Shown here piece by piece: positions 295-59,030 of a DNA stretch of 59,030 nucleotides. Positions within the stretch are counted from its first letter, which is position 1. The number at the start of each line of letters is the position of its first letter. Where the stretch lies: NCBI GenBank assembly GCA_030606285.1, contig JAUWGS010000012.1:1-59030 (forward strand), given 5' to 3'. The stretch comes from Planctomycetales bacterium. GTDB lineage: Bacteria; 4484-113. The notes beneath the pieces were generated by a model. It did not search any database. It saw nothing but the letters and a program-made list of their open reading frames with translations, and was not told where the DNA came from. Position numbers and translations under genes: made by a program.

Positions 295-520
295 TAGGCG
301 GGCAAAGCCCGCAAGGGCGTAGGGAATAGGGATTAGCTAAATCCTAACCCCTAAGCTCTGACCCCTCCACAGACGGGCAAGCCCGGCGTACTCATGGGGC
401 GGCGGGCAAGCATTTATGGCCGCCGCCCTGAGGTATACAGGGAAGAGCGGCGGGGCACAGGTCCCCGCCCTACAGGAAAGCGCGCAAGGGCAATTCGTGA
501 ATTGCCCCTACAAGAGCGGC
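295..520. repeat. Cluster of short hairpin units each followed by CCTAAG/CCCTACAR (REP/MITE-like family)
   Basis: Seen directly: ggattagctaaatcc+cctaag; ggcggcggg..ccgccgccc; gcggcggggcacaggtccccgcc+ctacag (447-477); gggcaattcgtgaattgccc+ctacaag (487-513, identical copy at 44178-44205). Confidence 0.5.
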
Positions 521-2049: not shown

Positions 2050-2375
2050 TTCTCTGTAGGGCGCGCACCTGTGGCGCGCCGCTGGGGGATTGCGCAAAGA
2101 TGGTAGACGGCGGGGCACACCCTCCGGCACCTGCGGAGTGGCGGGTAAAGGTCCCTGCCCTACAGAAAGAGCCGGGCTGGTTAGCCCGGCCTACCCGTGG
2201 AGGGTGGAATCACGGGCGGGACGCCCGTGCCACTAAGGAGACGCCCTACGGCGATTCACCCGTGGACGGCGAAGGGCACGGCGTGCCGTGCCCCACAATG
2301 GGTAGCGCCGGCTATCCAGTCGGCGGTAGCGGCAGTCAGCCGCCCTCCATAGGCGGGTAAACCTGGATAGGCGGC
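2050..2375. repeat. Second cluster of hairpin-CTACAR repeat units in the asnA 3' intergenic region
   Basis: ggcgcgcacctgtggcgcgcc palindrome; ggtccctgccctacag; gccgggctggttagcccggc+ctaccc; cacgggcgggacgcccgtg; ccctacggcgattcacccgtggacggcgaagggcacggcgtgccgtgcccc+acaa (about 85 percent identical to 2814-2870 inside the next CDS); ccgccctccataggcgggtaaacc. Confidence 0.5.
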
Positions 2376-2448: not shown

Positions 2449-4800
2449 ATGATCGGGATAAGAGCAGGCAAATTCGCGCTGGGGACCGTCGCAGTTGCGG
2501 CGTGCATTGCGCTTGCGCTCGTGCTTAGCACTTGCGGTGGGGGGAGTGGCAAGAGTGCGGTAGTCCAGGGCTTAAGCCCTGGCTCTTCGCCAGACAATAA
2601 GACCAGCCCTGAAGGGCTAGACTACCAGGCGGATACGACGATTTCCCTCGACCAGACGCTTACAGAGCTTGAGGGGATGGAGAAACCGGAGGGAGTGGAC
2701 GAAGCGCTGTTTGAGGAATTGAAGGATGCGCTGAACGAGGCTCTTACCTGTAGGGCGGCCATTTATGGCCACCGCGATTCTAGCCGGAAAGATGACGGCG
2801 GGGATGAATCCCCGCCCTACAGCGATTCATCCGTGGACGGCGACGGGCACAGCATGCTGTGCCCCTACAAGTCCGTGGCGACACCCCCTACCGGCGAAGT
2901 AAATCGGGTCAACGACCTTACCATCCTCGACAAGGGCGATGGGACATACACGCTCACGTGGCATTACAGGAACCTCGGCGATTACGACCAAGATGGGATT
3001 GTGGGACTACCCGACATCTATCCGCTGGCGGAGCATTTTGGGGAGACCTATGAGCCGACCGATGCGAACTGCATCCAGGCAGTGATTGACGGCAGCAGCA
3101 ATGGGCGCATCGGCATTGAAGAAATCACGCCGATTGCGATGAATTACGCAGTGGACGTGCATCATTACGCGGTAGAAGGCGCGCCCGACCAAGAAGGCCC
3201 ATTTGAGCCGGTCGGCGAAATCGCACAGGATGCGGGAACCGGCGAGGGGCGCCTTGAATACAGCGCAATCATCGAATCCCCAGCCGCGCTGTGGCATAGA
3301 GTGGTGCCCTACGATAGCGAAGGCGAGCCGGGCGAGCCGAGTAATGCCGTGCTGCGGCCCAGCAATGAGCCGATAATCTACGAGGTCAGCCCCACCGAGG
3401 GCTACCAGCACGAGGAATACACGTTTACGGCGGTCGTGACCGGCGCGGAGATGCTTGAATACGCCTGGGACTTCGGCGGCGGCGCGGTGCCCAACACATC
3501 CTCCGATCCCTCACCGACCGTCACCCTCGCCGACGCAGGCGTTTACTCAGCCTCCCTCACCGTCACCAACGCCTACGGCGAAGCCTCCTTCCCTTTCACC
3601 CTCACCATCTCCGAACGCGACATCTGGGCCCATACCTGGGGAACTAGCGGTACGGATATTACGACTGACATAGTTATTGATGGAAATGGTTATGTATACC
3701 TCGCCGAAGTAGGTGGAGTACTGGTGAAGTTCAGCAGTTCCGGCGAGTTTCGCTGGGCGCGCTGCTGGGACACGGGTGGCCACCAGACTTTGACCGACTT
3801 GTGGCTAATGGACGATGGACGGCTCCTGGGCTGTGGCTCGTGCGCAGCTTCGGGTGGGGACGGATACGACGATGTGCTGTTGATTGAGTACAGCGACGAT
3901 GGAGATGTGTTGCGTGCGATGACATGGGGTACGGAGGATCACGAGCGCGCCAGTCAATTTGTGATAGACGACGCAGGCAACATCTATTTGTGTGGAAGCT
4001 GGACCGAAGCGTGGGGAGATGAGTCGGTGCTGCTAATGAAGCTCGATGCGGAGTGGAATGTGCTGTGGTCGAAGGTGTGGGGAAGCTTCAGCGATGATGA
4101 GAGCGCTCGCGGCATTGCGCTCAGCGACGGCGCTATATATGTATCGGGCAGCAAGGGCCCCTGGGGCACCGGTGACGCGCTGCTTATGAAGCTGACTCTG
4201 GAAGGCGAGGTGCTCTGGGCGAAAACCTGGGGTACGGAAAAGCATGACTCACTGACCGACCTAGTAATCTGCCCCGACGGGTGCATATATGCTGTGGGGA
4301 CAATTTGGAAACGCGATCCGGACCCTAAAGCCGGAATCATATTGAAATACGATAGGGACGGGAGTCTGTTGGCAGCCAAGGGCTGGAATCCGAACCAGAG
4401 GAGTGGGATTACGAGCATACGTGCTGACCCTTATGGAACGCTGACTGCGGTGGGAAGCGATGGATATGACCTACTGCTTGTCAGACTGGATAGTGACCTG
4501 AATGTGGTCGCGGGTAAGGCCAGGCATCCGGAGGGACACTCGAACCAAGGCGTTAGCTGCGCTTATGACGCTGATTTCAACCTGTATGTCGCTGGGAACG
4601 TACATGATTACCCGCTCGGACAGTGGGAGGACCTTGAGGACAGGAGTTACATCATTGAAGGTGTAGAGGCAGAGGTAGAGGGCACCGTTTGGAGCCCCAA
4701 CGGAGACTCCGCTATTCCTGATGGCACACAAACAGAAGTTACAGGAGTCATCGACGGTAGCTTCGGTGGCTTTGACTTGCTGATATTGAAGAACTATTAG
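2449..4800 (+). CDS. Secreted lipoprotein with dockerin-like Ca-binding repeat pair, PKD domain and SBBP beta-propeller repeats; N-terminal linker contains in-frame repeat-element insertions
   Basis: 783 aa; signal/lipobox LALVLSTCGGGSGKS; DYDQDGIVGLPDIYPLAEHFG and SNGRIGIEEITPIAMNY (dockerin-like); YAWDFGGG...YSASLTVTNAYGE (PKD); repeated WGTSGTD/WGTEDHE/WGSFSDDE/WGTEKHD blocks (SBBP); RBS ggggtgagATG. Confidence 0.75.
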   Translation: MIGIRAGKFALGTVAVAACIALALVLSTCGGGSGKSAVVQGLSPGSSPDNKTSPEGLDYQADTTISLDQTLTELEGMEKPEGVDEALFEELKDALNEALTCRAAIYGHRDSSRKDDGGDESPPYSDSSVDGDGHSMLCPYKSVATPPTGEVNRVNDLTILDKGDGTYTLTWHYRNLGDYDQDGIVGLPDIYPLAEHFGETYEPTDANCIQAVIDGSSNGRIGIEEITPIAMNYAVDVHHYAVEGAPDQEGPFEPVGEIAQDAGTGEGRLEYSAIIESPAALWHRVVPYDSEGEPGEPSNAVLRPSNEPIIYEVSPTEGYQHEEYTFTAVVTGAEMLEYAWDFGGGAVPNTSSDPSPTVTLADAGVYSASLTVTNAYGEASFPFTLTISERDIWAHTWGTSGTDITTDIVIDGNGYVYLAEVGGVLVKFSSSGEFRWARCWDTGGHQTLTDLWLMDDGRLLGCGSCAASGGDGYDDVLLIEYSDDGDVLRAMTWGTEDHERASQFVIDDAGNIYLCGSWTEAWGDESVLLMKLDAEWNVLWSKVWGSFSDDESARGIALSDGAIYVSGSKGPWGTGDALLMKLTLEGEVLWAKTWGTEKHDSLTDLVICPDGCIYAVGTIWKRDPDPKAGIILKYDRDGSLLAAKGWNPNQRSGITSIRADPYGTLTAVGSDGYDLLLVRLDSDLNVVAGKARHPEGHSNQGVSCAYDADFNLYVAGNVHDYPLGQWEDLEDRSYIIEGVEAEVEGTVWSPNGDSAIPDGTQTEVTGVIDGSFGGFDLLILKNY

Positions 4801-7960: not shown

Positions 7961-8084
7961 AATCGTAGTTCGGGCAGGATGTTGGACTCAGACGCGCAGC
8001 CCGCTCCTTTAAGGCGGGCTCCGCTGACATCCTGGTCGCAGTTTAACCGCGCCATTGACTTCGGCTATTCCGCGTGACACAATA

Positions 8085-8265
8085 GATATGTCCGCTGGTT
8101 CAAGGAAGGCGGTGAGAATCCGCCGCGGGCCAGCCACTGTGAGGTGGACCGGACCGCCGATATCCCATTGGCCCCGCCCGGCGCGGGGCTGAGAAGGGGG
8201 CGGAACCGGGATGAAACCGAGCCAGGAAACTTGTCGGCGGGCGACAACACGAGCTTCTGGGATTA
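8085..8265 (+). promoter_or_regulatory. Cobalamin (adenosylcobalamin) riboswitch
   Basis: Conserved core seen directly: aaggaaggcGGTGAGAATCCgccgcgggccaGCCACTGtga (B12 box) then gagaagggggcggaaccgggatgaaaccgagccaggaaac; sits 5' of an ABC importer and TonB receptor operon. Confidence 0.7.
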
Positions 8266-8387
8266 AAGTGAAGTGTTGCGAACGCTGCATACAAACTGCG
8301 AACCGACCCCACCCCGCAGAGCCGCGCTCGCCTGACGCATTTTGCGCCAGCACTCCTGTTCCCGAAGCCCGCGTGAAGTGAAACGCT

Positions 8388-9194
8388 ATGGCGGAAGCGC
8401 TGGCTGCAATCGGGGTGTCCGCGGGATACAACTCCCGGCGCGTTTTGCACGACCTGAATCTCACCGTGGAGACGGGCGAGTTCGCCGCGCTCATCGGCCC
8501 CAACGGCGCGGGCAAGACCAGCCTTTTACGCCTCTTCACCAACCGCATCCGGCGCAGTGCAGGGACAGTGCGCGTGATGGGCACGGAGGCGCGCACGATG
8601 CCGGCGGCGGTGCGCGGGGCGACCATCGGCGTGCTCACGCAGGAGCGGGCGGCGCCGGTGCCGCTGAGCGTGTGGGAAATGGTAATGCTGGGACGGCTGC
8701 CGCACCTGGGGCCACTGGCACAGCCCCGGACGCATGACCGCGAAACCGTGGAGCGGACGCTGGCGGAGCTTTCACTGAGCGATTTCACAACTCGGCGCTT
8801 TACCGAGCTATCGGGCGGGGAGAGGCAGCGAGTGCTGCTCGCGCGCGCGATGGCGCAGGAGCCGAAGATACTGCTGCTCGACGAACCGACGGCACATCTG
8901 GACCTCACGTACCAGAAGGAGCTGATGGACGCGCTGCTCAAGCTTCGCGAGACGCGGGGGCTTACGGTGCTGGCGAGCCTGCACAATCTGTCGCTTGCGG
9001 GTAGCTACGCCGAGCGGCTCGTGCTGCTAAACGAGGGGCGCATCGTCGCCGACGGCACGCCCGCGGATGTGCTCAAGCTGGAGCGCTTAGAAGAGGTCTA
9101 CCACACGCGCCTCGTGCTGCTTACCGGGCACAACGGCGCGCCTATCGTAACTATAGAACCGGAGAACCGAAATGAGAACACTCGCAACGGTTAG
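8388..9194 (+). CDS. btuD: ABC transporter ATP-binding protein, FecE/BtuD family (B12/iron-complex import)
   Basis: Walker A GPNGAGKTSLLR, signature LSGGERQRVLLARA, Walker B ILLLDEPTAHLD; downstream of cobalamin riboswitch. Confidence 0.85.
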   Translation: MAEALAAIGVSAGYNSRRVLHDLNLTVETGEFAALIGPNGAGKTSLLRLFTNRIRRSAGTVRVMGTEARTMPAAVRGATIGVLTQERAAPVPLSVWEMVMLGRLPHLGPLAQPRTHDRETVERTLAELSLSDFTTRRFTELSGGERQRVLLARAMAQEPKILLLDEPTAHLDLTYQKELMDALLKLRETRGLTVLASLHNLSLAGSYAERLVLLNEGRIVADGTPADVLKLERLEEVYHTRLVLLTGHNGAPIVTIEPENRNENTRNG

Positions 9195-10116
9195 CCTTGT
9201 AGTTGTACTGGCAATCACCGCGCTGGCCGCGCCTACAGCGGCCGTAATCGTCGTTGGCGGCGAAGTCGATCCGTTCGCGCCGGTGGATTACTTCGGAGTT
9301 GAGTTCGAGCCAGCGGAGTATTCGCGGATTGTGACGCTGGCGCCGAACCTTACCGAAATGGTCCACTTCCTGGGCGCGTTCGAGCGCGTAGTAGGCGCCA
9401 CGAACTACGACACGTACCCGCCAGAGGTTAAGGACTGCGAGCGCATCGGTGGCTTTATTGATCCTGATATTGAGCGCATAGTCGCGCTGCAGCCGGATCT
9501 CGTGCTGGCGTACCGGGGGAATCCGCTGCCGGTGATATACAAGCTCAAGGAGCTCGACGTGCCCGTGTTTGTGCTGGACAATCCGAGCACGCTGAGCGAG
9601 GTCTACACGCAGATGATGCAGCTTGGAAGGCTGCTGATGGTGAGTGAGGAGCAAGAGACCAGGATCAGGCGGTTCAAAAGCGAGCTTGACGGCGCGTTTG
9701 AACTGGGCGCAAGGCTCCCCCGCCATCCGCGAGTGATGATGCTCGCGTGCAGCCTGCAGCCGCCGTATTACGCCGCAGGGCACGGCACGTTCATTGACGA
9801 CCTGATACGCCTGGCGGGAGGCGACAACGCGTTTGGCAGCGAAGGCTTCAGCGTGGTGACGCCGGAGGAGTTCATCGTGGCGGACCCGGAATTTCTGCTC
9901 ATCCCGGAGATACCAGAAGAGGGATTCCGCGAAAAGATGCTGGAAGCGCTCCGAGCGCAGCCGTTCCTCGCTCAAACTACCGCGCTGGAAACCGGCCAGG
10001 TGCTGTTTATCGACCAGGACATTCTCTCGCGCCCCGGCCCGCGCATCACCGAAGCGCTAGCAATCCTGCAGGACGCGCTCGTCGCGGCGACCACCGAGAG
10101 CGGAAACGATGAATAG
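9172..10116 (+). CDS. btuF: Periplasmic substrate-binding protein, BtuF/FecB (class III/cluster A) family
   Basis: Signal peptide; RIVTLAPNLTEMVHFLGA...IVALQPDLVLAY pattern typical of TroA-like B12/siderophore binding proteins; overlaps btuD end. Confidence 0.75.
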   Translation: MRTLATVSLVVVLAITALAAPTAAVIVVGGEVDPFAPVDYFGVEFEPAEYSRIVTLAPNLTEMVHFLGAFERVVGATNYDTYPPEVKDCERIGGFIDPDIERIVALQPDLVLAYRGNPLPVIYKLKELDVPVFVLDNPSTLSEVYTQMMQLGRLLMVSEEQETRIRRFKSELDGAFELGARLPRHPRVMMLACSLQPPYYAAGHGTFIDDLIRLAGGDNAFGSEGFSVVTPEEFIVADPEFLLIPEIPEEGFREKMLEALRAQPFLAQTTALETGQVLFIDQDILSRPGPRITEALAILQDALVAATTESGNDE

Positions 10117-11092
10117 CGAGAGCAGACGCGCGGTGAAGATCGCACTGGCACTCATCGCCGCGCTTGCGCTCATCGTCGTGCTGTCGCTCCTCGTCGGCTC
10201 AGCGGGTTTCAAACCCGCAAGCGAGAAGTTCGGGCTCATCGTGTGGCAGCTCCGGCTGCCACGAGTGCTGCTGGCATTCGCAGTCGGCGGGATGCTTGCG
10301 GTCTCCGGCGCGTACATGCAGTGTTTATTCCGCAACGCGCTCGCCGAGCCGTACATCACGGGCGTGTCGGCCGGTTCCGGGCTGGGCGCAGTGATTGCGC
10401 TGAGCGCGCTACCGTTTTCGTGGTTCTTGGCGAACCTGACACTGCCGCTTGCTGCGTTTGCCGGCGGACTGGCGATCACGCTATTGCTGCTAATACTGCT
10501 GCGCGAGCCCGGCACCGCGCCGCTGAAGCTACTGCTTCTGGGCATCGCGCTGGGAACGCTGGCGTCGGCGATGATGGCGTTTGTGCTGCTGCGGTTTCCC
10601 GATCGGACGCTGAAAAGCGCGTTGTTCTGGCTGTTTGGCAGCCTCACCGGCGCAAGCTGGCCCCAGGTGACGATTGCGCTTGTGGTGCTGGCCACGGGGC
10701 TTGCGTGGGGAGTTTTGCGCCACCGGATGCTGGACGCTCTGCTGCTGGGCACGGAGGACGCGCACAACCTCGGCGTGAACGTCACCGCCGCATCGCGCGC
10801 GCTGCTAATCGCGGCGACGCTGCTGGCGTCGGTATCGGTTGCGTTCGCGGGCATCGTTACGTTCGTGGGACTGGTGGTGCCGCACGTCATCAGATTGCTG
10901 CTGGGCGCAAGCCACTTGCGGCTGATTGTGCTATCGGCGCTTGCAGGAATGGCGCTGATGGGAATCGTTGACCTGCTCGCGCGAACGGTCGTGGCGCCCG
11001 GTGAGATTCCGCTTTCCATCATCACTTCGCTCATAGGCGCGCCGTTCTTCATCCTGCTGCTGCTGCGCACGAGGGGGCAGACCATTGGCTAG
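10109..11092 (+). CDS. btuC: FecCD-family ABC permease (BtuC-like)
   Basis: 327 aa, about 9 TM helices, motifs LLLGxxxAxxLGVN and GxIxFVGLVVPH typical of FecCD/BtuC. Confidence 0.85.
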   Translation: MNSESRRAVKIALALIAALALIVVLSLLVGSAGFKPASEKFGLIVWQLRLPRVLLAFAVGGMLAVSGAYMQCLFRNALAEPYITGVSAGSGLGAVIALSALPFSWFLANLTLPLAAFAGGLAITLLLLILLREPGTAPLKLLLLGIALGTLASAMMAFVLLRFPDRTLKSALFWLFGSLTGASWPQVTIALVVLATGLAWGVLRHRMLDALLLGTEDAHNLGVNVTAASRALLIAATLLASVSVAFAGIVTFVGLVVPHVIRLLLGASHLRLIVLSALAGMALMGIVDLLARTVVAPGEIPLSIITSLIGAPFFILLLLRTRGQTIG

Positions 11093-12989
11093 GCTCTGGT
11101 GGTTTGCGCTGTTCCTGCTTGCGCTGAACATGGCGGCTTTTGCGCAGGAAGCTGACACCGCTTCGGAGCAGGTTACAGCTGAAGCCGCCGAGCAAAACGA
11201 ACCGGCCGACCTCGGCGTTATCGAAGTTCGGGCGGAGGCCATCACGCTTTCGGCGCGCGCGCTGCCGGGGCAGAGCGTTATTGTGCTGAACCGCGACGAA
11301 TGGAGCGCAACGGCGCGAAGCATCGCCGACGTGCTGGAACAGGCTGCGCCGCTTACGCTTGCGCGCACCGGCGGCGAGGGCAGCCTGGCCACGCTATCGC
11401 TGCGCGCTGCAGGCTCGGCGGACACGCTTATTATGCTAAACGGAGTCCCGGTGGCGCTGCCGGGCGGAACGCCGGTGGACCTGAGCCTAATTGATCTGTC
11501 ATCAGTGGAGCGCATCGAGATTGTTCCGGGCGCGGCCTCGCTATATGGCACGCGGGCACTTGGCGGCATCGTCAATATCGTGCTGCGCGGCGACACGTCT
11601 GCGGAGGCTGGCACGACGGTAAAACTCTCAGGCGGCAGTTTCGGTACGTACCGCGGCGGGCTTTCACGCGTTCGCAGCGATGCCGACCGACAGGAGGCGC
11701 TGATAGCGTCGGTTTTCTCTACGCGTGGCAATTTCGGCTTCGAGACCGTAAACGGCCTAATCCGCACGCGGCGTAACAACGACGCACAGCGGGTCAATCT
11801 GCTCTGGCAACGCCAGGACTTCTCGGCGGATTCGCTGCGCACGAGCTTTGCATCGCTGCACGCGCTCCGGCGCGGCGTGCCAGGCTTCGCCGAGTTTCCC
11901 ACCGAACACGCACGGCTCACCGAGGAGATATTCACCGCGGGAATAAGCGAATTCGAGCCTAGGCCAACGGGAAAGTGGGGGCGCGAATGGTCGGTTGCGC
12001 TTGCGCAGGGCTACACGCGATTCCGCGACGATGCGCCGTTGATGGGCGCACCAGTGCGTTCGCGCACGGCAGACGCAACGCTGCGCGGAACGCTGTTACT
12101 CGGCAAGGACGAGCGCGACGGTCGCAGCGAAGCGGCGTTTGCGCTTACAGGCAATGCGATGTCCGCAGCGGATTACGGTGATCCAAAACGCATTAGCGGG
12201 CGTGTCAACGCGCTACGCTGCTGGCGCACCGGGGATTTCGCGTTCACGCCTTCGTTTGCGCTGGACTTATGCGAGGGCGAAGGCGCTGAAGCCAGCTGGG
12301 ATTTGGGCGTTGCATGGCAGCCTTCAAAGCATCTGACTGTCAGCGCGAACGCGGGGCGCAGTTTCCGCTACCCGGAGTTCGCCGAGCTTTACTATCCGTC
12401 GCAGGGATTCGTGCGCGGAAATCCGAGCCTCGAATCCGAGCACGCTTACTATGCGAACCTGGGGCTTTCGCTGGAGGGAAACGGCGGCGAGCTTGTAGTG
12501 GCCGCGTTCCTGCGCGAGCAGCACGACACCATCAAATTCCTGCCCGTTTCGGCGCAGTGCATCCGTCCGGTAAACACCGGCGAAACGCGCGCGCGCGGGC
12601 TGGAGACGACCGGGCACCTGCGGCTGTCTGAAAACGTTACAGCGAGCGCAAGCTATGCGCTGACAGACGCGGAGTTTGCACGCTCCGGTATTGATTTTGC
12701 GCAGACGCCGCGCCACCGCTTCTACGGGGCGGTCGCGTACGACGACGGCGGATGGAGCGCGGAGGTTGCGCACTTTCGCGAGTCGGCGCAGAGCGCGGAC
12801 CTCTTCGGCAGCATTCGCGTGCCGGGCAAGGCGCTGTGGAACCTATCGCTTGCGCGGCGGTCGCGCGGTGAGCGCTGCGGTAAACTATCAGTAACGGTGC
12901 GCAACGTCTTTGACCGAAGCGCGCGGGACTTCTGGGACCTGCCGCTGCCCGGGCGCAGCGTTGAAGTCTCGTGGGAACAAACGTTTTAG
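11085..12989 (+). CDS. btuB: TonB-dependent outer-membrane receptor (BtuB-like)
   Basis: Signal peptide; plug domain motifs (IVPGAASLYGTRALGGIVNIV), C-terminal aromatic residue (...SWEQTF); translationally coupled to btuC. Confidence 0.8.
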   Translation: MARLWWFALFLLALNMAAFAQEADTASEQVTAEAAEQNEPADLGVIEVRAEAITLSARALPGQSVIVLNRDEWSATARSIADVLEQAAPLTLARTGGEGSLATLSLRAAGSADTLIMLNGVPVALPGGTPVDLSLIDLSSVERIEIVPGAASLYGTRALGGIVNIVLRGDTSAEAGTTVKLSGGSFGTYRGGLSRVRSDADRQEALIASVFSTRGNFGFETVNGLIRTRRNNDAQRVNLLWQRQDFSADSLRTSFASLHALRRGVPGFAEFPTEHARLTEEIFTAGISEFEPRPTGKWGREWSVALAQGYTRFRDDAPLMGAPVRSRTADATLRGTLLLGKDERDGRSEAAFALTGNAMSAADYGDPKRISGRVNALRCWRTGDFAFTPSFALDLCEGEGAEASWDLGVAWQPSKHLTVSANAGRSFRYPEFAELYYPSQGFVRGNPSLESEHAYYANLGLSLEGNGGELVVAAFLREQHDTIKFLPVSAQCIRPVNTGETRARGLETTGHLRLSENVTASASYALTDAEFARSGIDFAQTPRHRFYGAVAYDDGGWSAEVAHFRESAQSADLFGSIRVPGKALWNLSLARRSRGERCGKLSVTVRNVFDRSARDFWDLPLPGRSVEVSWEQTF

Positions 12990-16821: not shown

Positions 16822-16988
16822 GGGATGATGATAGCAGAGCGGGCGTCAGGGATGGTCGTCCTTCGCTTCTCTACAACTTCTCCGCATCGCTGGGAAGCAG
16901 CGCATCAGTGCGGCCAAGTCTGGAGCTTATCGAACAGCTCCTTCATCCTGACAGCGTTTTATGCTAGCCCGATAGTAGGCTGCGGTGA

Positions 16989-17279
16989 CTACTCCGCGCT
17001 CTCCGCAGGAATGACCTTGAAGGTGCCGAACATCATTAGCACGTGGTCCTTGAGCTCAGGATCGCCCTGCACGCCCCACTCGGAAGCAGACCCCCCGATG
17101 CCGCCGTACTCTCTTTCATCCGTGCTGAAATATACAAACTCATACGAACCGGCTGAGAGGCTAGGTACGCGGAAGCGAAGCGCAGTCTCCGGAGGCCCTT
17201 CGCCGACAGGATTGCGCACGACGCAGTCGGTTGTCAGGCATTTTGGGTGAACGTGTCCCTCTCGGTCGGTCACATTCAT
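16989..17279 (-). CDS. Hypothetical protein (downstream part of the same interrupted reading frame)
   Basis: 96 aa; in frame with 17358..17654. Confidence 0.3.
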   Translation of the reverse strand: MNVTDREGHVHPKCLTTDCVVRNPVGEGPPETALRFRVPSLSAGSYEFVYFSTDEREYGGIGGSASEWGVQGDPELKDHVLMMFGTFKVIPAESAE

Positions 17280-17357
17280 ATCGAGTACGAAATCACCCAG
17301 TCCATCTACGGAGTCGTCGTTAGCCCACTTGCCCTGCCTATCGGCATACTGGTATCC

Positions 17358-17654
17358 CTAGAGGACCTTTGGCCTGAACTCAGCAGAGACCCGCACTTCT
17401 ATCACGAAGGGGTCGTCCTCAACAACTGGGTCAGGCATTCGGATTTCTTCCACATACACCCAGTACTGCGTCGGGTATCCGCCTATGGGCTCGTAGAGCT
17501 CCCGCGAATTGTCAGAGGGAAGTGTTGACGGTGGCAACGAGTACAGGGGAGGGCCACCGTAGGCTCCGCCACTGAAACTGGCACCGACAAGACCGATGAG
17601 CACAAGGAAGAGCAACGTAACGATTTGATTCCTCATGTCTACCACCAACCACAT
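17358..17654 (-). CDS. Hypothetical secreted protein (upstream part of an ORF interrupted by in-frame TAG)
   Basis: 98 aa with N-terminal hydrophobic segment; same frame as ORF 16989..17279, separated by TAG at 17358-17360. Confidence 0.35.
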   Translation of the reverse strand: MWLVVDMRNQIVTLLFLVLIGLVGASFSGGAYGGPPLYSLPPSTLPSDNSRELYEPIGGYPTQYWVYVEEIRMPDPVVEDDPFVIEVRVSAEFRPKVL

Positions 17655-17677
17655 TATAGCTGCATGATGCGCGGTGC

Positions 17678-18484
17678 TTAATCAGATTTGTAGTTCTCTT
17701 CTATTTCCACTTTCAACTGTAGCAACTCCGTATTTTCCGGATCCACTTCCAGCCCACAGGCGACGGATTCATAGGCGACTTGAGGCTTCCCCATTTCGAT
17801 GGCGATTCGGGCTAAGCGGATCCATTTTGCAGCTCCCTGCTGGCGCACTTCCTCAGAGGACGGATGTTCATCCTCGAGTGTCGGTTGATACGTCAGCATA
17901 CTATCCCACACGGTCTCGTAATGCTTATCGAACGTGTTTGGTTTAGTCATGTACTGTATGTTATGTGATCTGCCTTTTATCAAGAAGTCGATCATCAGAA
18001 ACTTCACTGTCTGGCCCTGCATGCTAAGCGAAGCGCACCTCTTGATCGCTGGCATTTTATTGAACACAATAGGCTCTATATTCATTTCCACGCCTAATTG
18101 CTGCTCGATATCTTCGATGTTTTTCATCAGTTCATCATAGTCCGCCAAGTCAATTGCTTTGACCAGGACCCGCAGATCACCTTGGCCGTCTGGTATAAGG
18201 AAGGCAACCTTGCCTCGCGGGTCATCAGGATATTCCAGTATTTCCCAATCGGCGGGTGGAATGATGGTGAAATTGCCCTTGGGGTCCGTATAAACAACAG
18301 CTTCTGGCTCCTTAGCTTGGTCCGCTGCTCCCGGAGCAGCGTTGCGTACCGCGGTGGGCGTTGTTGATGCCTGACTACTATCATCTGAATTATTATCTTC
18401 GCTGCATGACGCGCAGAGCAAAATCAGTTGGCTGCTAACGACTAAAACCATAAATCCACATTTACCTAAACCGTACATAGTCAC
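17678..18484 (-). CDS. Lipoprotein, hypothetical (low-GC islet)
   Basis: 268 aa; lipobox LILLCASCSEDNNSD; TPR-like C-terminal helices; local GC clearly lower than flanks. Confidence 0.5.
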   Translation of the reverse strand: MTMYGLGKCGFMVLVVSSQLILLCASCSEDNNSDDSSQASTTPTAVRNAAPGAADQAKEPEAVVYTDPKGNFTIIPPADWEILEYPDDPRGKVAFLIPDGQGDLRVLVKAIDLADYDELMKNIEDIEQQLGVEMNIEPIVFNKMPAIKRCASLSMQGQTVKFLMIDFLIKGRSHNIQYMTKPNTFDKHYETVWDSMLTYQPTLEDEHPSSEEVRQQGAAKWIRLARIAIEMGKPQVAYESVACGLEVDPENTELLQLKVEIEENYKSD

Positions 18485-18532
18485 TCCTTACGACCTAAGT
18501 TTAAATACATTATTCAGCAGATGTATAAATTA

Positions 18533-18760
18533 TTAAAACTTATCCCAATTAATCCCAAGCAGGTGATCGATTAATCTCGCTAGCGGGAAAAAGGCTAAAC
18601 AGCAAATAATAACCGTAGCCCATTGTATTAGGCTTTCATTTCGAATTGTGATCTGGTCGAGTATATACCATACGATACAAATAGCCCCAATTACTAGACC
18701 AAATGCGGTAATAAAAGCTATGACCCCGAAATTGTCGCTATCACCGAGATTCACCCTCAC
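18533..18760 (-). CDS. Small membrane protein, hypothetical
   Basis: 75 aa, two predicted TM helices; low-GC islet. Confidence 0.35.
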   Translation of the reverse strand: MRVNLGDSDNFGVIAFITAFGLVIGAICIVWYILDQITIRNESLIQWATVIICCLAFFPLARLIDHLLGINWDKF

Positions 18761-18896
18761 ATCGCCGACATATGTGCGTAATAGTAACGTCCTTTCAAGT
18801 AAAATTATAGCACAACAAACGCTTCGTGTAAGCGCCGGTTGAAAAGCGCGGCGGTGTAGTGGCAGTCAAAAGTGCGGTACCCAGTAACAGAACAGG

Positions 18897-19154
18897 GTGT
18901 ATACGAATATGGAATGGTGGGCCGCCATAAGGCACATTGTGTTGGTTGAGGGAGTCAGCAAGCGGCAGGTGCTAGCTGAGACGGGAATTCACTGGCAGGC
19001 ACTTGAGAAGATCCTGGCATACAACGAGCCACCTGGGTGCCGGCTTGGGAAGAAACGGCGCAGGCACACCGAGCGCAGATCCCGTCAAGTGCCCATAGCG
19101 GTCCTCGCAGTCCAACCCCGAATACTACATGATAAACGACAAGCGAAGCATTAA
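18897..19154 (+). mobile_element. IS21-family transposase (IstA) N-terminal HTH fragment, truncated remnant
   Basis: MEWWAAIRHIVLVEGVSKRQVLAETGIHWQALEKIL matches the IstA N-terminal pattern (I..L...EG.S.R.IA...G.....V.K.L); ORF ends after 85 aa, no catalytic domain. Confidence 0.5.
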
Positions 19155-19194
19155 TCTCGATATGCTCCTGACAACACTACAGATCTCAATAGAC

Positions 19195-19420
19195 CTGCCC
19201 CATCTGGGGCGGATCGAGGTCGCGGCGAGCTTCGCAGATTTCGCGGCGGGGGGTAAACGCGCCTAGGCGCACAAGACCCCGCCCTACAAGAGGTGCGGCA
19301 CGCTTCGGCTTCGCTCTCTTCGAGCCTGAGCCTCAGAGCCGAAGGCAGCGTCTACGACAGAGACCGCACCCCGCCATAGGCGGGCAAGCCTACAGCGCAG
19401 TTTTCAGCCCGCACGGGGCT
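19195..19420. repeat. Hairpin-CTACAR repeat cluster
   Basis: gcgcctaggcgc+acaagaccccgccctacaag; ccgccataggcgg+gcaagcctacagcg. Confidence 0.45.
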
Positions 19421-30415: not shown

Positions 30416-31819
30416 TTACCCCTTCTTAATCTTGTCTTCCAGCTTACGGATCAACTGCTGCACACCCAATTCAAGCACAGATGCTTTCCCCCCGTCAAGG
30501 AAAGACCGCCTAAGATTCCTGAATTCATCTCCAAGCCTCTTCTGCCTACGCAAACTGTAACAAGGCACCTTCAACTTCCGCAGTTGCGTCTTATTGATGC
30601 TGACAGTTCCAACACCATGTTTCATTGCTTCAATCTGGATTCTCCCAGCGCTAGTATGCATGAATAGATGAAGGAACGCAGCATCATATTGCTTTAGTCT
30701 AATGATGTGCAGGTAGTCGGTGGCAACTCCGATGTCTCTATCACTCAGAATAGGAGCTGTCTTACCAGCGCTGCCCACGCCCACCCGGCAAAAGACAAGG
30801 TCGCCAACGCGTGTCGTCGCACGCTCACTGTCCATCAGCGAACCCGGCTTGATGTACCGAGGATCTTTTAAGTAATCAACCCCTAGGACAGTGAGATTGG
30901 TTGCGTGAAGAAAGCGCTTTCCGCTCTTGCTGAAGCGTCTATCCGCACCGTACAGAGTACGCCCGCTAGTAATGTCACTGGTAATCTCTTCGAGATTCAT
31001 CCACTCGCATTTAAATTCACGGTCAAGAGACGTAGCAGGTTTGGCGGTGACCGGTAATCCTTCCACGAAATCTCCAGATGACAGAATAGTCGTTCTAGCG
31101 CGATTAGGGCTGTCGTATTCAACCAACCTGATCCTATCCCGAACATGTCCTGAAAAAGGGCGCTTACGAAGCACAACCGCCGCTGTTTTCGCTGTTGTGT
31201 AATCAAACGTGTCTCTAGGTAGTCTCAGCACAGTAAGGACTTGACATACATCTGTCATATGACTGCGCACGTACTTGTCACGAAGATTCGTGACCGCGCC
31301 CTCAGGCAGTACGATGCCAATGTACCCACCGGAAGAGCATAGCCTGATAAACCTCTCAAGGAATAGAACTTCGATTGGCTGAGAAGAACGGCCTACTCCT
31401 AAATGGTACTGGTTTAGCACTCTGGGGTCGTTGATACGGTCATACCAAGCGCTGAACGGCGGGTTCCCAACTACAAGGTCGTACTTGAAATCTGCAAGGA
31501 TTCGCCTTGCTTTAGAATCGTGCGACTCGATGTCAAGCGTATCAGCGCAAACGAAGTTGCTCCGCCCGAAACTAGAAGCACAGTGAGCAACCCATCTTTT
31601 GTCAATATCAGCCCCGAATAAGCTTACATGCGGCCACCTTTCACTTACAGCCTTTAGAAAAGTCCCGCTGCCAACAGCCGGGTCAACGGCTCTCTGGAAA
31701 ATGACACTCGGCACTTCATCGAGGATTGCGGAAACGACCCATGTAGGCGTAAAGTACTGATTATGTGGCTGCCTATGCGGCCGTTCTCTGGTGGTTAGCT
31801 TAGCATCCATCTGGACCAA
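30416..31819 (-). CDS. Gamma-class N6-adenine DNA methyltransferase with fused C-terminal target-recognition domain (TaqI-like)
   Basis: Motif order FxGxG (DPAVGSGTF) then NPPF (VVGNPPFSAW) is gamma class; C-terminal roughly 200 aa resembles an HsdS-type TRD; low GC. Confidence 0.7.
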   Translation of the reverse strand: MVQMDAKLTTRERPHRQPHNQYFTPTWVVSAILDEVPSVIFQRAVDPAVGSGTFLKAVSERWPHVSLFGADIDKRWVAHCASSFGRSNFVCADTLDIESHDSKARRILADFKYDLVVGNPPFSAWYDRINDPRVLNQYHLGVGRSSQPIEVLFLERFIRLCSSGGYIGIVLPEGAVTNLRDKYVRSHMTDVCQVLTVLRLPRDTFDYTTAKTAAVVLRKRPFSGHVRDRIRLVEYDSPNRARTTILSSGDFVEGLPVTAKPATSLDREFKCEWMNLEEITSDITSGRTLYGADRRFSKSGKRFLHATNLTVLGVDYLKDPRYIKPGSLMDSERATTRVGDLVFCRVGVGSAGKTAPILSDRDIGVATDYLHIIRLKQYDAAFLHLFMHTSAGRIQIEAMKHGVGTVSINKTQLRKLKVPCYSLRRQKRLGDEFRNLRRSFLDGGKASVLELGVQQLIRKLEDKIKKG

Positions 31820-32269: not shown

Positions 32270-32319
32270 CCGGAATAGCCGGGCTGGTGAGCCCGGCGTA
32301 CTCCTGTTGGTCCGTCCCC

Positions 32320-35118: not shown

Positions 35119-36879
35119 CTAGTTCTCCTTACTACCTTCCTTAAGCCCTAGCTTCTTCCGCACATTCTCAACCAGCGGTGCGAATTCAGGATCGTCCTTG
35201 TAGGGTTCGAAGGCTGCGAAAACTGTATCTGGTTTGTCAACTTTAAAGCTCTCTCCCGATAGCACTTCTTGAACCTGAAGCTCGCTAATAGCTTTTTTCC
35301 GCTTCTTTTGCGCGGCCAGTGTAGCTGCTAGAATGATGTGGGGCCCCGCCTGCGAACGCAGTTTCTCATCGCCATCTAAAGCTCTCCGCAGCGATGCTTC
35401 AGCCTCTTCGAATCGCTTCGCACAGAAGAGCAGTTCCCCTTGACTTGCATAGGCTTCGTAGTAGTCGGGCTTGAGCTTCACCGCTTCCGCACACTTCTCT
35501 AGTGCTTCGTCATACTTGCCCAGCACTCCCAGCGCGATGCCCCAATTGTTGTAGGCTATAGCATACTCGGGCTTGTGCTTCACCGCTTCTGCGTACTTTT
35601 CGCACTCCTCTTTGTACTTGCCCAAGTTCCCCAGCGCTACACCCCAGTTGGAGTAGGCTTGGTGGTCGTCTGGCTTGTGCTTCACCGCTTCGGCATACTT
35701 CTCACATGCTTCCTCGTGCTTGCCAAGCATGGAAAGCGCAGTGCCCCAGTTGTAGTAGGCTTCAGCGTAATCGTGCTTGTGCTTCACTGCTTGTGCAAGC
35801 TTCTCACACGCTTCCTCATACCGGCCCAGCTTCCCTAGCGGCACGGCCCAGTTATTGTAAGCCACCGCATAATCGGGCTTGTGCTTCACCGCTTCTGCGT
35901 ATTTTTCGCACCCCTCTTTGTACTTGCCCAAGTTCCCCAGCGCTACACCCCAGTTGGAGTAGGCTTGGTGGTCGTCTGGCTTGTGCTTCACCGCTTCGGC
36001 ATACTTCTCACATGCTTCCTCGTCGCGGCCTAGCATGGAAAGCGCAGTGCCCCAGCAGAACCATAACCGCTCATCCTCGCTGTTATCAGCTTGGATGCTC
36101 TCCGCAATACTCACTGTGATGGCATGAGCATCCCTATAATGAGCAGTCAGCAAGTCGCGTATTGAGTACTTCCGCGGCTTCGAAAGCTCAGCAGCATATG
36201 CAGGTGCGGTGCTCTCAATCCGCTTTCGCAGGTTTTCTTTCAAGTCCTTAATTTGGGGAAGAACGTCACTCGCCAGAACTCTCCTTAGTAACTCCTCACT
36301 GGCCTTATCGAGAGCTCGCTTCTGCTTTTTCCGCACTCCTGGCGCCAAAGCGGTATACTCGCGGAGGTCGTCAAGCTCCTTCTTAGTCTCTGCGAGCTCC
36401 TTTTCCGTTCGAGTAAGCTGCAAAACAGGGCTCGGTGAATATGGTTTTATAAGAACATCCAGCACAGCATCAGTGCCTTCATCACTGGCCCTGAGAGCTT
36501 CAAGCAAGAGGCGCCATTCTTCGGCTTGCGACAAGTCGTAGTAGTGGTATGCTTTGAATCTCTCAGAAGGCATGTCCGGCCCAAGCTTAACAACTAACGG
36601 TGCTCTATTCTCGTGGCAGGACTGGAAGTCTTCCAACTCCTGAAGGCATCTTGGCCTGTCATCCCAGCTTTTGCTGTATAGGAGTAGGAACTCACGGCAG
36701 CAGTCAACTGCCCCTGAAGTCTCCCTCTCGATATGACCGCTGACCAGGTGAATCGGATCGAACCAGGGAGAGATCCCGGCGAATCTAAGGACGACGTAAA
36801 GCGCCTTCGCTGCCGCACCATGCGTATCTTTGTGATAGCTGATAAAGCAATCGTATTCGCGTTCTTTCTTCTCGTCCAT
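35119..36879 (-). CDS. TIR-domain protein with coiled-coil and multi-TPR array (candidate NADase-type defence effector)
   Basis: Start ATG 36879 (RBS gggagg); N-terminus EYDCFISYHKD...ALYVVLRFAGISPWFD is a TIR fold; at least 9 TPR units (AEAVKHKPDxxxAYxNWGxALGxLGKYxE); DNA-level near-identical 190-bp tandem repeats with 306-bp period. Confidence 0.75.
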   Translation of the reverse strand: MDEKKEREYDCFISYHKDTHGAAAKALYVVLRFAGISPWFDPIHLVSGHIERETSGAVDCCREFLLLYSKSWDDRPRCLQELEDFQSCHENRAPLVVKLGPDMPSERFKAYHYYDLSQAEEWRLLLEALRASDEGTDAVLDVLIKPYSPSPVLQLTRTEKELAETKKELDDLREYTALAPGVRKKQKRALDKASEELLRRVLASDVLPQIKDLKENLRKRIESTAPAYAAELSKPRKYSIRDLLTAHYRDAHAITVSIAESIQADNSEDERLWFCWGTALSMLGRDEEACEKYAEAVKHKPDDHQAYSNWGVALGNLGKYKEGCEKYAEAVKHKPDYAVAYNNWAVPLGKLGRYEEACEKLAQAVKHKHDYAEAYYNWGTALSMLGKHEEACEKYAEAVKHKPDDHQAYSNWGVALGNLGKYKEECEKYAEAVKHKPEYAIAYNNWGIALGVLGKYDEALEKCAEAVKLKPDYYEAYASQGELLFCAKRFEEAEASLRRALDGDEKLRSQAGPHIILAATLAAQKKRKKAISELQVQEVLSGESFKVDKPDTVFAAFEPYKDDPEFAPLVENVRKKLGLKEGSKEN

Positions 36880-36970
36880 GGAGCTGACCTCCCACTGCAA
36901 TTATAGCCCAATAGGTGACAGTTAGGCTTTTGCAGTCTACAAGCCCTTCAATATCCGGTCGAAGTCTAAA

Positions 36971-37000
36971 CGGCGGGGCGCAGAGACCCCGCCCTACAGG
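36971..37000. repeat. Hairpin-CTACAR unit overlapping the 3' end of the HicB-like gene
   Basis: cggcggggcgcagagaccccgcc+ctacagg; the CTA of ctacag is the TAG stop (minus strand) of the CDS. Confidence 0.45.
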
Positions 37001-44169: not shown

Positions 44170-44215
44170 GTATTAGCAGGGCAATTCGTGAATTGCCCCT
44201 ACAAAGAAGGGCGAG
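44170..44215. repeat. Hairpin-CTACAR unit (exact copy of the 487-513 unit)
   Basis: gggcaattcgtgaattgcccctacaa is identical to the unit at 487-513. Confidence 0.5.
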
Positions 44216-48265: not shown

Positions 48266-48271
48266 TTTTTG

Positions 48272-48730
48272 CATCACATCAAGATGTGGAGCCATCCTGG
48301 TAGTCCAGGGCTTCAGCCCTGGTCTTTTCATCCGACGAGCCAGCCCTAAAGGCTTGCCCGCCTGGGCGGGGCTGGACTACCGGATTCTCTTTCGTAGGGG
48401 CACGGCACGCCGTGCCCGCCAACGTGGATAAGGATGCAAAAGGGCATAGCATGCTATGCCCCTACAATCAACAACGACACTTTAGAGACGGACGCGCAGT
48501 CTCCAGGCTGCGCGATTGAAGGCATATAAGGAGTGGCGGCCCGCCGGCGCCTGTGGCGTGGCGGGTAAACCTGGAGATTTACACGCCTGGGCGTGCCGCC
48601 ACTCCAGGTTTAATCAGAGAAGACGGCGGTCATACCCTCCGACGCTTGCGCTATAGCGGGCAAGAATGACCGCCCTACAGCGTCCCTTCTTGCTGACGCT
48701 TGCCCGCCATAGCTTTAGCGGCGGCGGGAC
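48272..48730. repeat. Large cluster of the 85-bp TIR element and hairpin-CTACAR repeat units
   Basis: ggtagtccagggcttcagccctgg...ggctggactaccgg (85-bp TIR element homologous to 2560-2640); gggcacggcacgccgtgccc; gggcatagcatgctatgcccctacaa; gtggcgggtaaacctggag; gaccgccctacagcg. Confidence 0.5.
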
Positions 48731-58050: not shown

Positions 58051-58133
58051 CTTCTGTAGGGTGGGGACTTGTGCGCCCAGCCTACTCTGCGGTGTTCCTC
58101 TTTCGAGTAAGCGGTGCGTGCAACCCAGCCGAC

Positions 58134-59030
<897 letters not shown>

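What the first reader, a model, noticed from the sequence alone, without database searches (positions are those of the whole stretch)
2050..2375. Family of short hairpin units ending in CCCTACAR (REP/MITE-like) scattered at seven or more loci
Seen at 295-520, 2050-2375, 2750-2880, 19195-19420, 36971-37000, 44170-44215 and 48272-48730. Each cluster is made of different 20-35-nt perfect palindromes (for example gggcacagcatgctgtgccc, gggcaattcgtgaattgccc, cggggatgaatccccg, ggcgcgcacctgtggcgcgcc), each followed by ctacag/ctacaa. One unit is exactly duplicated (487-513 = 44178-44205). A 57-nt composite unit is about 85 percent identical between 2243-2297 and 2814-2870. The variable stem with a constant 3' tag suggests a templated or nuclease-guided spreading mechanism, in the manner of REP/BIME elements and a RAYT-type transposase, rather than random palindromes.
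Basis: seen in the sequence. Interest (0 to 1): 0.6.

Follow-up and report, generated by a model that had tools for sequence, protein, structure and literature searches.

The report
GTAG-tagged REP hairpin repeats (REP/BIME clusters)
The scattered short hairpins ending in CCCTACAR are real: read on the other strand they are classical bacterial REP elements (a 5'-GTAG head followed by a GC-rich stem-loop), several families of them, the kind spread by RAYT tyrosine transposases, so this is a new example of a known kind of selfish or domesticated repeat.

Summary
CCCTACAR occurs 15 times against about 2 expected. GTAG-tagged perfect hairpins (stem of 7 bp or more) occur 14 times against 1.4 expected. 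About 21 units lie at 9 loci, and 15 of them are intergenic.

On the opposite strand each unit reads YTGTAG followed by a stem-loop. This is the defining layout of GTAG-type REPs (Di Nocera 2013). At least five stem families coexist, as head-to-head dimers (REPIN-like) and mosaic (BIME-like) clusters.

Five units lie in frame in the N-terminal linker of a PKD lipoprotein gene (2449-4800). Orthologues carry different REP modules at the same spot.

The same hairpins occur in many phyla. In other genomes they flank, and for class B also sit inside, RAYT genes (NCBIfam REP_Tyr_transpos). This matches the published TnpAY1 subclass 2.4 (Quentin 2018).

No RAYT, TnpB or other transposase is encoded in the window, and the rest of this genome could not be examined. 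RAYT-driven spread here is therefore inferred, not shown.

Verdict: a new member of a known kind, of modest interest.

The parts
449..475 (-). Class A REP: CTGTAG|GGCGGGG-7 nt-CCCCGCC
   Evidence: An identical unit is in L055.
488..513 (-). Class B REP: TTGTAG|GGGCAATTC-ac-GAATTGCCC
   Evidence: A 27-nt identical copy is at 44178-44204.
297..432 (.). Untagged or degenerate GC hairpins (GGCGGGCAAR cores) in the same cluster; family not assigned
   Evidence: Partial matches to L006.
2054..2080 (+). Class E REP: CTGTAG|GGCGCGC-7 nt-GCGCGCC. With 2109-2165 it forms a head-to-head pair.
   Evidence: The same sequence is coded as CRARTCGAP in orthologue P0006.
2109..2165 (-). Long class A REP: imperfect outer stem, large loop with a nested hairpin, CTGTAG head
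   Evidence: z-score only -0.14, so the fold is weak. The inner part matches L006.
2171..2194 (-). Class D REP: GGGTAG|GCCGGGCT-4 nt-AGCCCGGC
   Evidence: 96% matches in L055 and L006.
2233..2297 (-). Composite copy 1: decayed tag, 22-nt spacer and a class B REP whose tag is degenerate (TTGTGG)
   Evidence: 84% identical to 2814-2870, with compensatory stem changes
2318..2365 (.). Untagged hairpin unit with a GGCGGGTAAA core; family not assigned
2556..2630 (+). Class C REPIN (two GTAGT|CCAGGGCTT..AAGCCCTGG-type REPs, heads outward), in frame inside ORF 2449-4800
   Evidence: -16.9 kcal/mol, z -2.8. Present in L239 and absent in L238.
2748..2822 (+). Head-to-head dimer: class E (CTGTAG|GGCGGCCATTTATGGCC) plus class A (GGCGGGGATGAATCCCCGCC|CTACAG), in frame inside ORF 2449-4800
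   Evidence: folds as one long hairpin, -18.2 kcal/mol. Present in L238 and replaced by class D in L239.
2845..2870 (-). Class B REP: TTGTAG|GGGCACAGCATGCTGTGCCC, in frame inside ORF 2449-4800 (encodes GHSMLCPYK)
   Evidence: 100% identical in L239 and absent in L238.
19245..19289 (-). Long class A REP with the nested palindrome GCGCCTAGGCGC
19360..19395 (-). Degenerate unit CCGCCataGGCGGgcaagCCTACAG
   Evidence: read by eye only
32277..32301 (-). Class D REP with a GTAC tag in place of GTAG
36972..36999 (-). Class A REP. Its GTAG head supplies the TAG stop (36994-36996) of the HicB-like gene 36994-37290 (-).
44178..44204 (-). Class B REP, exact copy of 487-513
48296..48384 (+). Class C REPIN with a further hairpin nested in its right arm
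   Evidence: -22.4 kcal/mol, z -3.2
48394..48467 (+). Head-to-head dimer of two class B REPs (GGGCACGGCacGCCGTGCCC and GGGCATAGCATGCTATGCCC)
48535..48610 (.). Untagged long hairpin with a GGCGGGTAAA core; family not assigned
48625..48680 (-). Long class A REP: 9-bp perfect outer stem GGCGGTCAT/ATGACCGCC, 32-nt loop, CTGTAG head
58054..58090 (+). Degenerate class A-like unit CTGTAG|GGTGGGG..., inside ORF 57858-58778

Best explanation
These are REP elements of the GTAG-tagged superfamily. Each is a 24-60 nt unit: an unpaired 5' YTGTAG head followed directly by a GC-rich stem-loop. At least five stem families are present (A, B, C, D, E). They occur singly, as head-to-head dimers that can fold into longer hairpins (REPIN-like), and as mosaic clusters (BIME-like).

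The most likely way they spread is through a RAYT (TnpA-REP), an HUH/Y1 single-strand DNA endonuclease encoded elsewhere in the genome. The enzyme binds the folded hairpin on single-stranded DNA, uses GTAG as a guide or recognition tetranucleotide, cuts at a nearby dinucleotide, and rejoins. This copies or moves units, preferentially next to units already in place, which builds clusters.

The 5' extension differs by family: CT for classes A and E, TT for class B, GG for classes C and D. This suggests more than one cognate enzyme or cleavage site.

**Shown here:**
- the anatomy of the units;
- their excess over chance;
- sharp unit boundaries;
- compensatory stem variation;
- presence or absence of modules at one orthologous site;
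- RAYT genes flanked by the same hairpins in other genomes.

**Inferred:** that a RAYT exists in this genome and that it acts by this chemistry. The chemistry is taken from experiments on group 2 and group 3 enzymes (PMC8266576). The group 4 / subclass 2.4 enzymes that match class B have not been tested biochemically, as far as I found.
For: - **Excess over chance:**
- **Hairpin with an unpaired GTAG foot, and dimers that fold as one long hairpin:**
- **Unit boundaries:** a 27-nt identical copy sits at two unlinked loci with unrelated flanks.
- **Structure is maintained:**
  - Within the window, GGGCACAGCATGCTGTGCCC and GGGCATAGCATGCTATGCCC differ by a compensatory pair, as do the two composite copies.
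  - Across metagenomes, 119 of 130 matches to GGGCANNNCRTGNNNTGCCCCTACAA have all three free stem positions complementary. Chance would give 1 in 64.
- **Mostly extragenic:** 15 of 21 units.
- **A GTAG head supplies a TAG stop codon**. Di Nocera 2013 describes the same thing.
- **Modules come and go at one orthologous site.** The window, L239 and L238 carry different combinations in the same coding linker. The modules are 88-100% identical, against 56-81% for the flanks.
- **RAYT association elsewhere:**
  - L007, L033 and L110 are class A loci. Their RAYTs score 113, 86 and 103 bits against NCBIfam NF047646 (cutoff 80), and class A REPs sit beside the RAYT gene in L007 and L110.
  - L152 (107 bits) has a class B dimer about 215 bp from its 3' end.
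  - L194 is a REPtron: GGGCACGGCATGCCGTGCCC lies on both sides of the RAYT and inside it. That sequence differs from the window units at 2274 and 48398 only in the two central bases.
  - The L007 RAYT matches PDB 4ER8 (TnpA-REP) at 3.9e-9.
- **Density of RAYT-like ORFs:** 10 in about 1.5 Mb of DNA fetched by REP pattern alone.
- **Literature:**
  - GTAG REP superfamily, coexisting families, head-to-head dimers and intragenic REPs (PMC3733652).
  - Subclass 2.4 REPs with a GGG/CCC stem base, 'double foot' forms, and in-frame insertion in tnpA-REP (PMC6006769).
Against: - No RAYT, IS200-type TnpA, TnpB or other transposase is encoded in the 59 kb. This rests on Pfam scans of about 60 ORFs and a six-frame HMM search at E up to 10.
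- No RAYT was found in the 8-22 kb pieces of the closest relatives either (L006, L055, L238, L239).
- Only one pair of units in the window is identical and many are decayed. The population could be old and no longer mobile.
- Class B has TT, not CT, 5' of GTAG. In S. maltophilia, changing CT to TT abolishes cleavage, so the cleavage site for this class is unknown.
- Several hairpins in the clusters carry no GTAG at all (GGCGGGTAAA units).
- The genome-wide copy number is unknown.
Confidence: 0.82

Rival explanations
1. Fossil REPs. The units are genuine GTAG REPs, but the cognate RAYT has been lost from this genome. They now persist only as passive or exapted hairpins, for example mRNA 3' structures, linker-coding modules or stop-codon donors.
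For: No RAYT in the window or in the fetched relatives. High sequence heterogeneity and decayed tags, such as TTGTGG at 2274-2297, GTAC at 32301 and GGTGGGG at 58054. Di Nocera notes that REPtrons are missing in some REP-bearing strains.
Against: The modules are 88-100% identical between genomes whose flanking coding DNA is only 56-81% identical, and different modules occupy the same site in orthologues. This argues for recent turnover or homogenisation. Only about 1-2% of a typical genome was inspected, so failing to see a RAYT says little.
Confidence: 0.2
2. Functional RNA or DNA hairpins that arose in place (intrinsic terminators, mRNA stabilisers, protein-binding sites) and resemble each other through convergent selection, not through mobility.
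For: Most clusters lie downstream of genes. A few class C and D hairpins are followed by weak T-rich tails and are picked up by the terminator scan.
Against: Class A and B hairpins are followed by CTACAR, not by a T-run. The real asnA terminator (1907-1933) is a separate, canonical structure upstream of the cluster. Identical 27-nt copies with unrelated flanks, units on both strands and inside a coding region in frame, and a constant unpaired tag cannot be explained by terminator function. No Rfam family matches.
Confidence: 0.05
3. Ends or miniature derivatives of IS200/IS605-family insertion sequences (PATE-like), mobilised by a classical TnpA(IS200), possibly with TnpB.
For: The chemistry and architecture are related: a subterminal hairpin plus a 5' guide tetranucleotide.
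Against: No TnpA or TnpB in the window. The transposase genes found beside the same hairpins elsewhere carry the RAYT signature Y..NP, not Y...Q. They score best on the RAYT model NF047646 and well below cutoff on transpos_IS200. The units are single hairpins or symmetric dimers, not left-end/right-end pairs enclosing cargo.
Confidence: 0.04
4. A repeated peptide motif under protein-level selection (for example GHSMLCPYK or DGGDESPPYS in secreted-protein linkers), with the intergenic copies being gene fragments.
For: Five units are translated in frame in ORF 2449-4800, and similar peptides recur in orthologues.
Against: The same DNA unit is translated in different frames in different proteins: CRGTACRAPT, VGQFMNCPYK and RAIRESPLQY. 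It occurs in both orientations and mostly between genes. Variation preserves base pairing, not the peptide.
Confidence: 0.01

Closest known systems
GTAG-tagged REP superfamily (Di Nocera, De Gregorio & Rocco 2013, PMC3733652), which includes E. coli REP/BIME, Pseudomonas REP/REPIN, Stenotrophomonas SMAG and Opitutus terrae GTAG families
   Same: An unpaired GTAG at one end of a 6-13 bp GC-rich stem with a short or complex loop. Several families in one genome. Head-to-head dimers and clusters. Mainly extragenic. The tag can donate a TAG stop codon. In-frame intragenic copies. Class A hairpins were found in many Opitutaceae MAGs.
   Different: The stem sequences and the host (an unclassified 'bacterium' MAG lineage) are not among the 24 published families as far as I could check; the published figures are not held in the library. 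The family-specific 5' extensions (CT, TT, GG) and the long-loop class A variants are particular to this set.
REPs of TnpAY1 subclass 2.4 (Quentin et al. 2018, PMC6006769), equal to RAYT group 4 of Bertels et al. 2017
   Same: Class B units have GTAG followed by a stem that starts with three G-C pairs. In metagenomes about half are 'double foot' (GTAG...CTAC), 63 of 130. [quoted passage not shown] The RAYT motifs NH[IV]H, WQ and YIxxNP match.
   Different: All class B units in the window are single-foot. Whether this genome has a subclass 2.4 RAYT is unknown.
E. coli TnpA-REP / REPtron (PDB 4ER8; Corneloup et al. 2021, PMC8266576)
   Same: The presumed mechanism: an HUH/Y1 enzyme recognises GTAG plus the hairpin on single-stranded DNA and cleaves at a flanking dinucleotide. 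The L007 RAYT matches 4ER8 at 3.9e-9. Classes A and E have CT immediately 5' of GTAG.
   Different: The E. coli REP has a bulged stem that is required for recognition, whereas these stems are perfect. The class B-associated RAYT (L194) has no detectable sequence match in the PDB.
Rickettsia palindromic elements (RPE) and other in-frame intragenic repeats
   Same: Short palindromic repeats tolerated in frame within coding regions, in surface or linker segments.
   Different: The RPE-4 and RPE-6 types that Di Nocera maps to REPs belong to the CGTC superfamily, which lacks a dedicated transposase, and RPE-1 is a longer palindromic insertion. The units here are 24-30 nt and GTAG-tagged.

Membership tests
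GTAG-tagged REP superfamily | Short (about 20-40 nt) unit able to form a stem-loop (stem 6-13 bp) | tested here: met
   Perfect stems of 7-10 bp with loops of 0-8 nt. DNA folds of -7.7 to -10.4 kcal/mol, mostly z below -2. The long class A variants fold less convincingly (z -0.14 to -2.05).
GTAG-tagged REP superfamily | Unpaired GT[AG]G tetranucleotide 0-2 nt 5' of the stem | tested here: met
   12 cluster units have GTAG 0-1 nt from a perfect stem of 7 bp or more, and 14 in total against 1.4 expected. A few have decayed tags (TTGTGG, GTAC).
GTAG-tagged REP superfamily | Many dispersed copies in the genome | tested here: inconclusive
   About 21 units at 9 loci in 59 kb, with one exact duplicate at unlinked loci.
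GTAG-tagged REP superfamily | Predominantly extragenic, often just 3' of genes, with dimers or clusters in alternating orientation | tested here: met
   15 of 21 units are intergenic against 13% intergenic sequence. Head-to-head dimers at 2054-2165, 2556-2630, 2748-2822, 48296-48384 and 48394-48467.
REPtron (REP plus cognate RAYT) | A RAYT gene (HUH motif, Y..NP motif) in the same genome, flanked by the same REPs | not testable with these tools
   None in the window, and the rest of the genome was not retrievable. In other genomes the same hairpins do flank RAYTs: L007, L110, L152 and L194.
TnpAY1 subclass 2.4-type REPs | Long REP whose stem base is three G-C pairs; 'double foot' forms; in-frame copies inside tnpA-REP | tested here: inconclusive
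   The GGG/CCC stem base is met for all class B units in the window. Double-foot forms and copies inside RAYT genes were seen only in other loci, not in the window.
IS200/IS605 miniature elements (PATE-like) | Distinct left-end and right-end hairpins bounding a unit, plus TnpA (Y...Q) or TnpB in the genome | tested here: not met
   The units are single hairpins or symmetric dimers. There is no TnpA or TnpB in the window. The associated transposases elsewhere are of the Y..NP RAYT type.
MITE (DDE-transposase derived) | Terminal inverted repeats with target-site duplications | tested here: not met
   For the duplicated unit, identity stops exactly at the hairpin and tag, with no duplicated flank. 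No transposase was found in the window.
Rho-independent terminator | GC-rich hairpin followed immediately by a T-run on the transcribed strand | tested here: not met
   Class A and B units are followed by CTACAR. Only weak T-rich tails follow some class C and D units. A canonical terminator is present separately at 1907-1933.
Any curated RNA family (Rfam 15) | Match at the family's gathering score | tested here: not met
   Only a cobalamin riboswitch and tRNA-Pro were found.

The most novel reading that the evidence does not exclude
Subclass 2.4 RAYT genes carry their own REP in frame. Horizontal transfer of the gene alone would therefore deliver both the enzyme and its template hairpin. This would explain why identical 26-nt class B REPs (for example GGGCAATTCATGAATTGCCCCTACAA) occur in contigs of 34-71% GC and in this unclassified lineage.

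Once established, the units would be recruited repeatedly as interchangeable in-frame modules in the disordered linkers of secreted proteins. The PKD lipoprotein family shows a different REP combination in every orthologue.
Probability: 0.2. Interest if true: 0.5.

Novelty: new member of a known kind. Interest (0 to 1): 0.28.

Why it matters
The finding extends the catalogue of GTAG-type REPs to an uncultured, unclassified bacterial lineage that carries at least five coexisting stem families in 59 kb.

It also gives a clear natural example of REP modules being swapped in and out of one coding linker among orthologues. That is useful for anyone studying how RAYT/REP systems evolve, how repeats are tolerated in proteins, or how to avoid annotating REP-derived peptides as real protein features.

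It does not reveal a new mechanism. The architecture, the RAYT link, intragenic REPs and REPs inside RAYT genes have all been published.

Tried and rejected
- **Finding the source genome.** Exact-protein look-ups for AsnA and for P0001 found nothing on record. Megablast of the window against all 237 fetched loci gave no match. The protein search did show that the window is a whole 59,030-bp NCBI contig.
- **RAYT in the window or in relatives.** None was found by a regex screen, a 3-seed HMM, a 9-seed HMM at E up to 10, or Pfam scans.
- **REPs inside RAYT genes.** This looked new at first. Reading Quentin 2018 showed it is already described for subclass 2.4, so I dropped it as a novelty claim.
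- **Terminator explanation.** Checked and rejected for classes A and B.
- **Known RNA families.** None match.
- **PDB match for the class B-type RAYT (L194).** None by sequence.
- **Strand bias relative to replication.** GC skew in the window gives no clear origin or terminus, so the test was not possible.
- **Direction of change at the orthologous linker.** Gain or loss could not be resolved. L238 has TGACAA where the window has CTACAA, which could be a remnant of a lost unit.

Full report
**1. Observation**

The motif is real and far above chance.
- CCCTACAR occurs 15 times on the two strands, against 1.93 expected (maximum 6 in 100 shuffles).
- GCCCTACAG occurs 7 times, against 0.47 expected.
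- A search for perfect hairpins (stem of 7 bp or more, loop of 12 nt or less) finds 59 in the window.
- Counted the other way, 14 GTAG sites are followed within 0-2 nt by a perfect stem of 7 bp or more. First-order Markov simulations give 1.4 (maximum 4).

- The duplicated unit is confirmed. Identity covers exactly 27 nt (AGGGCAATTCGTGAATTGCCCCTACAA) and stops at the hairpin and tag.
- The 57-nt composite is confirmed at 84% identity, and the stem differences are compensatory.

I found additional units at 2556-2630, 32277-32301 and 58054-58090.

**2. What the units are**

On the complementary strand every unit reads 5'-YTGTAG followed directly by a GC-rich stem-loop. The 'constant 3' tag' is therefore the reverse complement of the canonical REP head. 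DNA folding leaves GTAG unpaired at the foot of the hairpin.

| Class | Head and stem | Notes |
|---|---|---|
| A | CTGTAG\|GGCGGGG...CCCCGCC | also long-loop variants with nested hairpins |
| B | TTGTAG\|GGGCA...TGCCC | |
| C | GGTAGT\|CCAGGGCTT..AAGCCCTGG | |
| D | GGTAG\|GCCGGGCT....AGCCCGGC | |
| E | CTGTAG\|GGCGCGC... or GGCGGCC... | |

Many units form head-to-head pairs that fold as one long hairpin, as REPINs do. Examples are 2556-2630, 2748-2822, 48296-48384 and 48394-48467. Some hairpins in the clusters have no GTAG (GGCGGGTAAA cores). I could not assign these to a family.

**3. Position**

- 15 of 21 units are intergenic, whereas 13% of the window is intergenic.
- The cluster at 2050-2375 lies downstream of a separate, canonical asnA terminator at 1907-1933.
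- At 36994-36996 the GTAG head supplies the TAG stop of a HicB-like gene. Di Nocera et al. describe this behaviour.
- Five units (2556-2870) lie in frame in the N-terminal linker of ORF 2449-4800. This is a PKD-domain protein with a lipoprotein-type signal peptide. NCBI's gene call is the same 783-residue protein (P0001).

**4. Evidence for structure and turnover**

Within the window, stems differ by compensatory pairs.

A metagenome scan used GGGCANNNCRTGNNNTGCCCCTACAA, which leaves six stem positions free. In 119 of 130 matches all three free pairs are complementary, where chance would give 1 in 64.

Orthologues of the PKD protein all carry REP-coded peptides in the same linker, but different ones. 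A DNA alignment of the window, L239 and L238 shows the following:

| Module | Window | L239 | L238 |
|---|---|---|---|
| Class C REPIN | present | present | absent |
| Class E/A dimer | present | replaced by a class D unit | present |
| Class B unit | present | present | absent |

The modules are 88-100% identical, while the flanking coding DNA is 56-81% identical. Units that are intergenic in the window (2056 and 449) are coding in orthologue P0006, as CRARTCGAP and DGGAQVPALQG. The units are therefore DNA-level modules, not protein motifs.

**5. Distribution and transposase link**

Hits came from Opitutaceae and other Verrucomicrobiota, Oscillospiraceae, Armatimonadota, Acidobacteriota, WS1, Kiritimatiellia, Rhodobacterales and others.

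L006 (MAG 'bacterium AUK046') and L055 carry units identical to window units, and L006 shares several other families as well. They are the nearest named relatives.

Screening the fetched loci found RAYT genes next to the repeats.
- **L007, L033 and L110 (class A loci):** their RAYTs score 113, 86 and 103 bits against NF047646 (cutoff 80), and class A REPs lie beside the gene in L007 and L110.
- **L152, L150 and L225:** above cutoff.
- **L135 and L194:** just below cutoff.
- **L194:** a REPtron. GGGCACGGCATGCCGTGCCC lies on both sides of the RAYT and inside it. It differs from the window units at 2274 and 48398 only in the two central bases.
- **L007:** its RAYT matches E. coli TnpA-REP (PDB 4ER8) at 3.9e-9.

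In L135, L150, L194 and L237 the class B hairpin lies in frame inside the RAYT gene next to the HuH motif, in different reading frames. I first took this to be new. Quentin et al. 2018 already describe exactly this for TnpAY1 subclass 2.4 (Bertels group 4), including the GGG/CCC stem base and the 'double foot' REPs.

**6. What is missing**

- The window encodes no RAYT, TnpA(IS200), TnpB or other transposase.
- The rest of the genome could not be reached.
- RAYT-mediated spread in this organism is therefore an inference from anatomy and from other genomes.
- The cleavage chemistry (CT or CA cleavage guided by GTAG on single-stranded DNA) has been shown only for group 2 and group 3 enzymes.
- Class B has TT, not CT, ahead of GTAG, so its cleavage site is unknown.

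**7. Rivals**

- **Terminator or in-situ hairpin origin:** contradicted by the CTACAR tail, identical copies with unrelated flanks, both orientations, and the separate true terminator.
- **IS200/IS605 miniature elements:** not supported, because the associated enzymes are Y..NP RAYTs and the units are not left-end/right-end pairs.
- **MITEs:** no terminal inverted repeats and no target-site duplications.
- **Peptide repeat:** excluded, because the same unit is used in several reading frames and variation preserves base pairing.
- **Fossil REPs whose RAYT has been lost:** still open. The high identity of modules between diverged genomes argues for recent activity.

**8. Verdict**

These are GTAG-type REP/BIME elements, several families of them, in an unclassified lineage. 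This is a new member of a known kind.

The modestly interesting points are the module swapping in one coding linker and the occurrence of sequence-identical class B REPs in contigs of 34-71% GC. The latter suggests co-transfer of REP and RAYT, possibly helped by the REP copy inside the RAYT gene. That idea is not tested here.

Noticed in passing
window 47672-48269: The 3' 39 nt of tRNA-Pro(CGG) (47672-47748) are repeated at 48231-48269 (97% identical). The two copies bracket only a hicB (47855-48055) / hicA (48052-48231) toxin-antitoxin pair. This is a 514-bp tRNA-attached islet with no integrase.
   Followed up: partly
window 8079-12989: A cobalamin riboswitch (8079-8252, 89 bits) sits ahead of an ABC ATPase / periplasmic binding protein / FecCD permease / TonB-dependent receptor operon. 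The same gene order is found in relative L239.
   Followed up: partly
window 30416-31819, 41791-43799, 53221-56852: Three restriction-modification loci lie in 59 kb: an N6_Mtase/Eco57I-type enzyme, a DNA methylase with a TdeIII-type endonuclease, and a type I specificity subunit next to a fused HsdR_N/N6 methylase. A TIR-TPR protein lies at 35119-36900.
   Followed up: no
window 16900-19200: A stretch of lower GC (53-59%) holds ORFs with no Pfam match. A short ORF (18897-19154) looks by eye like the helix-turn-helix start of a transposase. This may be a decayed mobile element.
   Followed up: no
window 297-432, 2318-2365, 48535-48610, 19360-19395: Hairpin units with GGCGGGTAAA or GGCGGGCAAG cores and no GTAG tag sit inside the REP clusters. 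They are shared in part with L006. Their family and tag (possibly TTTAC on the other strand) are not assigned.
   Followed up: partly
L181 8343-9019 (also 3442-3673): Six class B REPs (GTAG|GGGCACGGCgtGCCGTGCCC) lie in the same orientation with a period of about 122-148 bp. This is a tandem block, not a dimer or mosaic cluster.
   Followed up: no
metagenome loci L118-L237: The identical 26-nt class B REP GGGCAATTCATGAATTGCCCCTACAA occurs in contigs ranging from 34% to 71% GC, so the same hairpin sequence is present in very different organisms.
   Followed up: partly
L055 6400-7030 and L026 5540-5630: REP clusters or dimers appear to lie inside long ORFs in other genomes too, for example L055 ORF 5345-7201. 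In L055 the class D, A and D units are read through in frame.
   Followed up: partly
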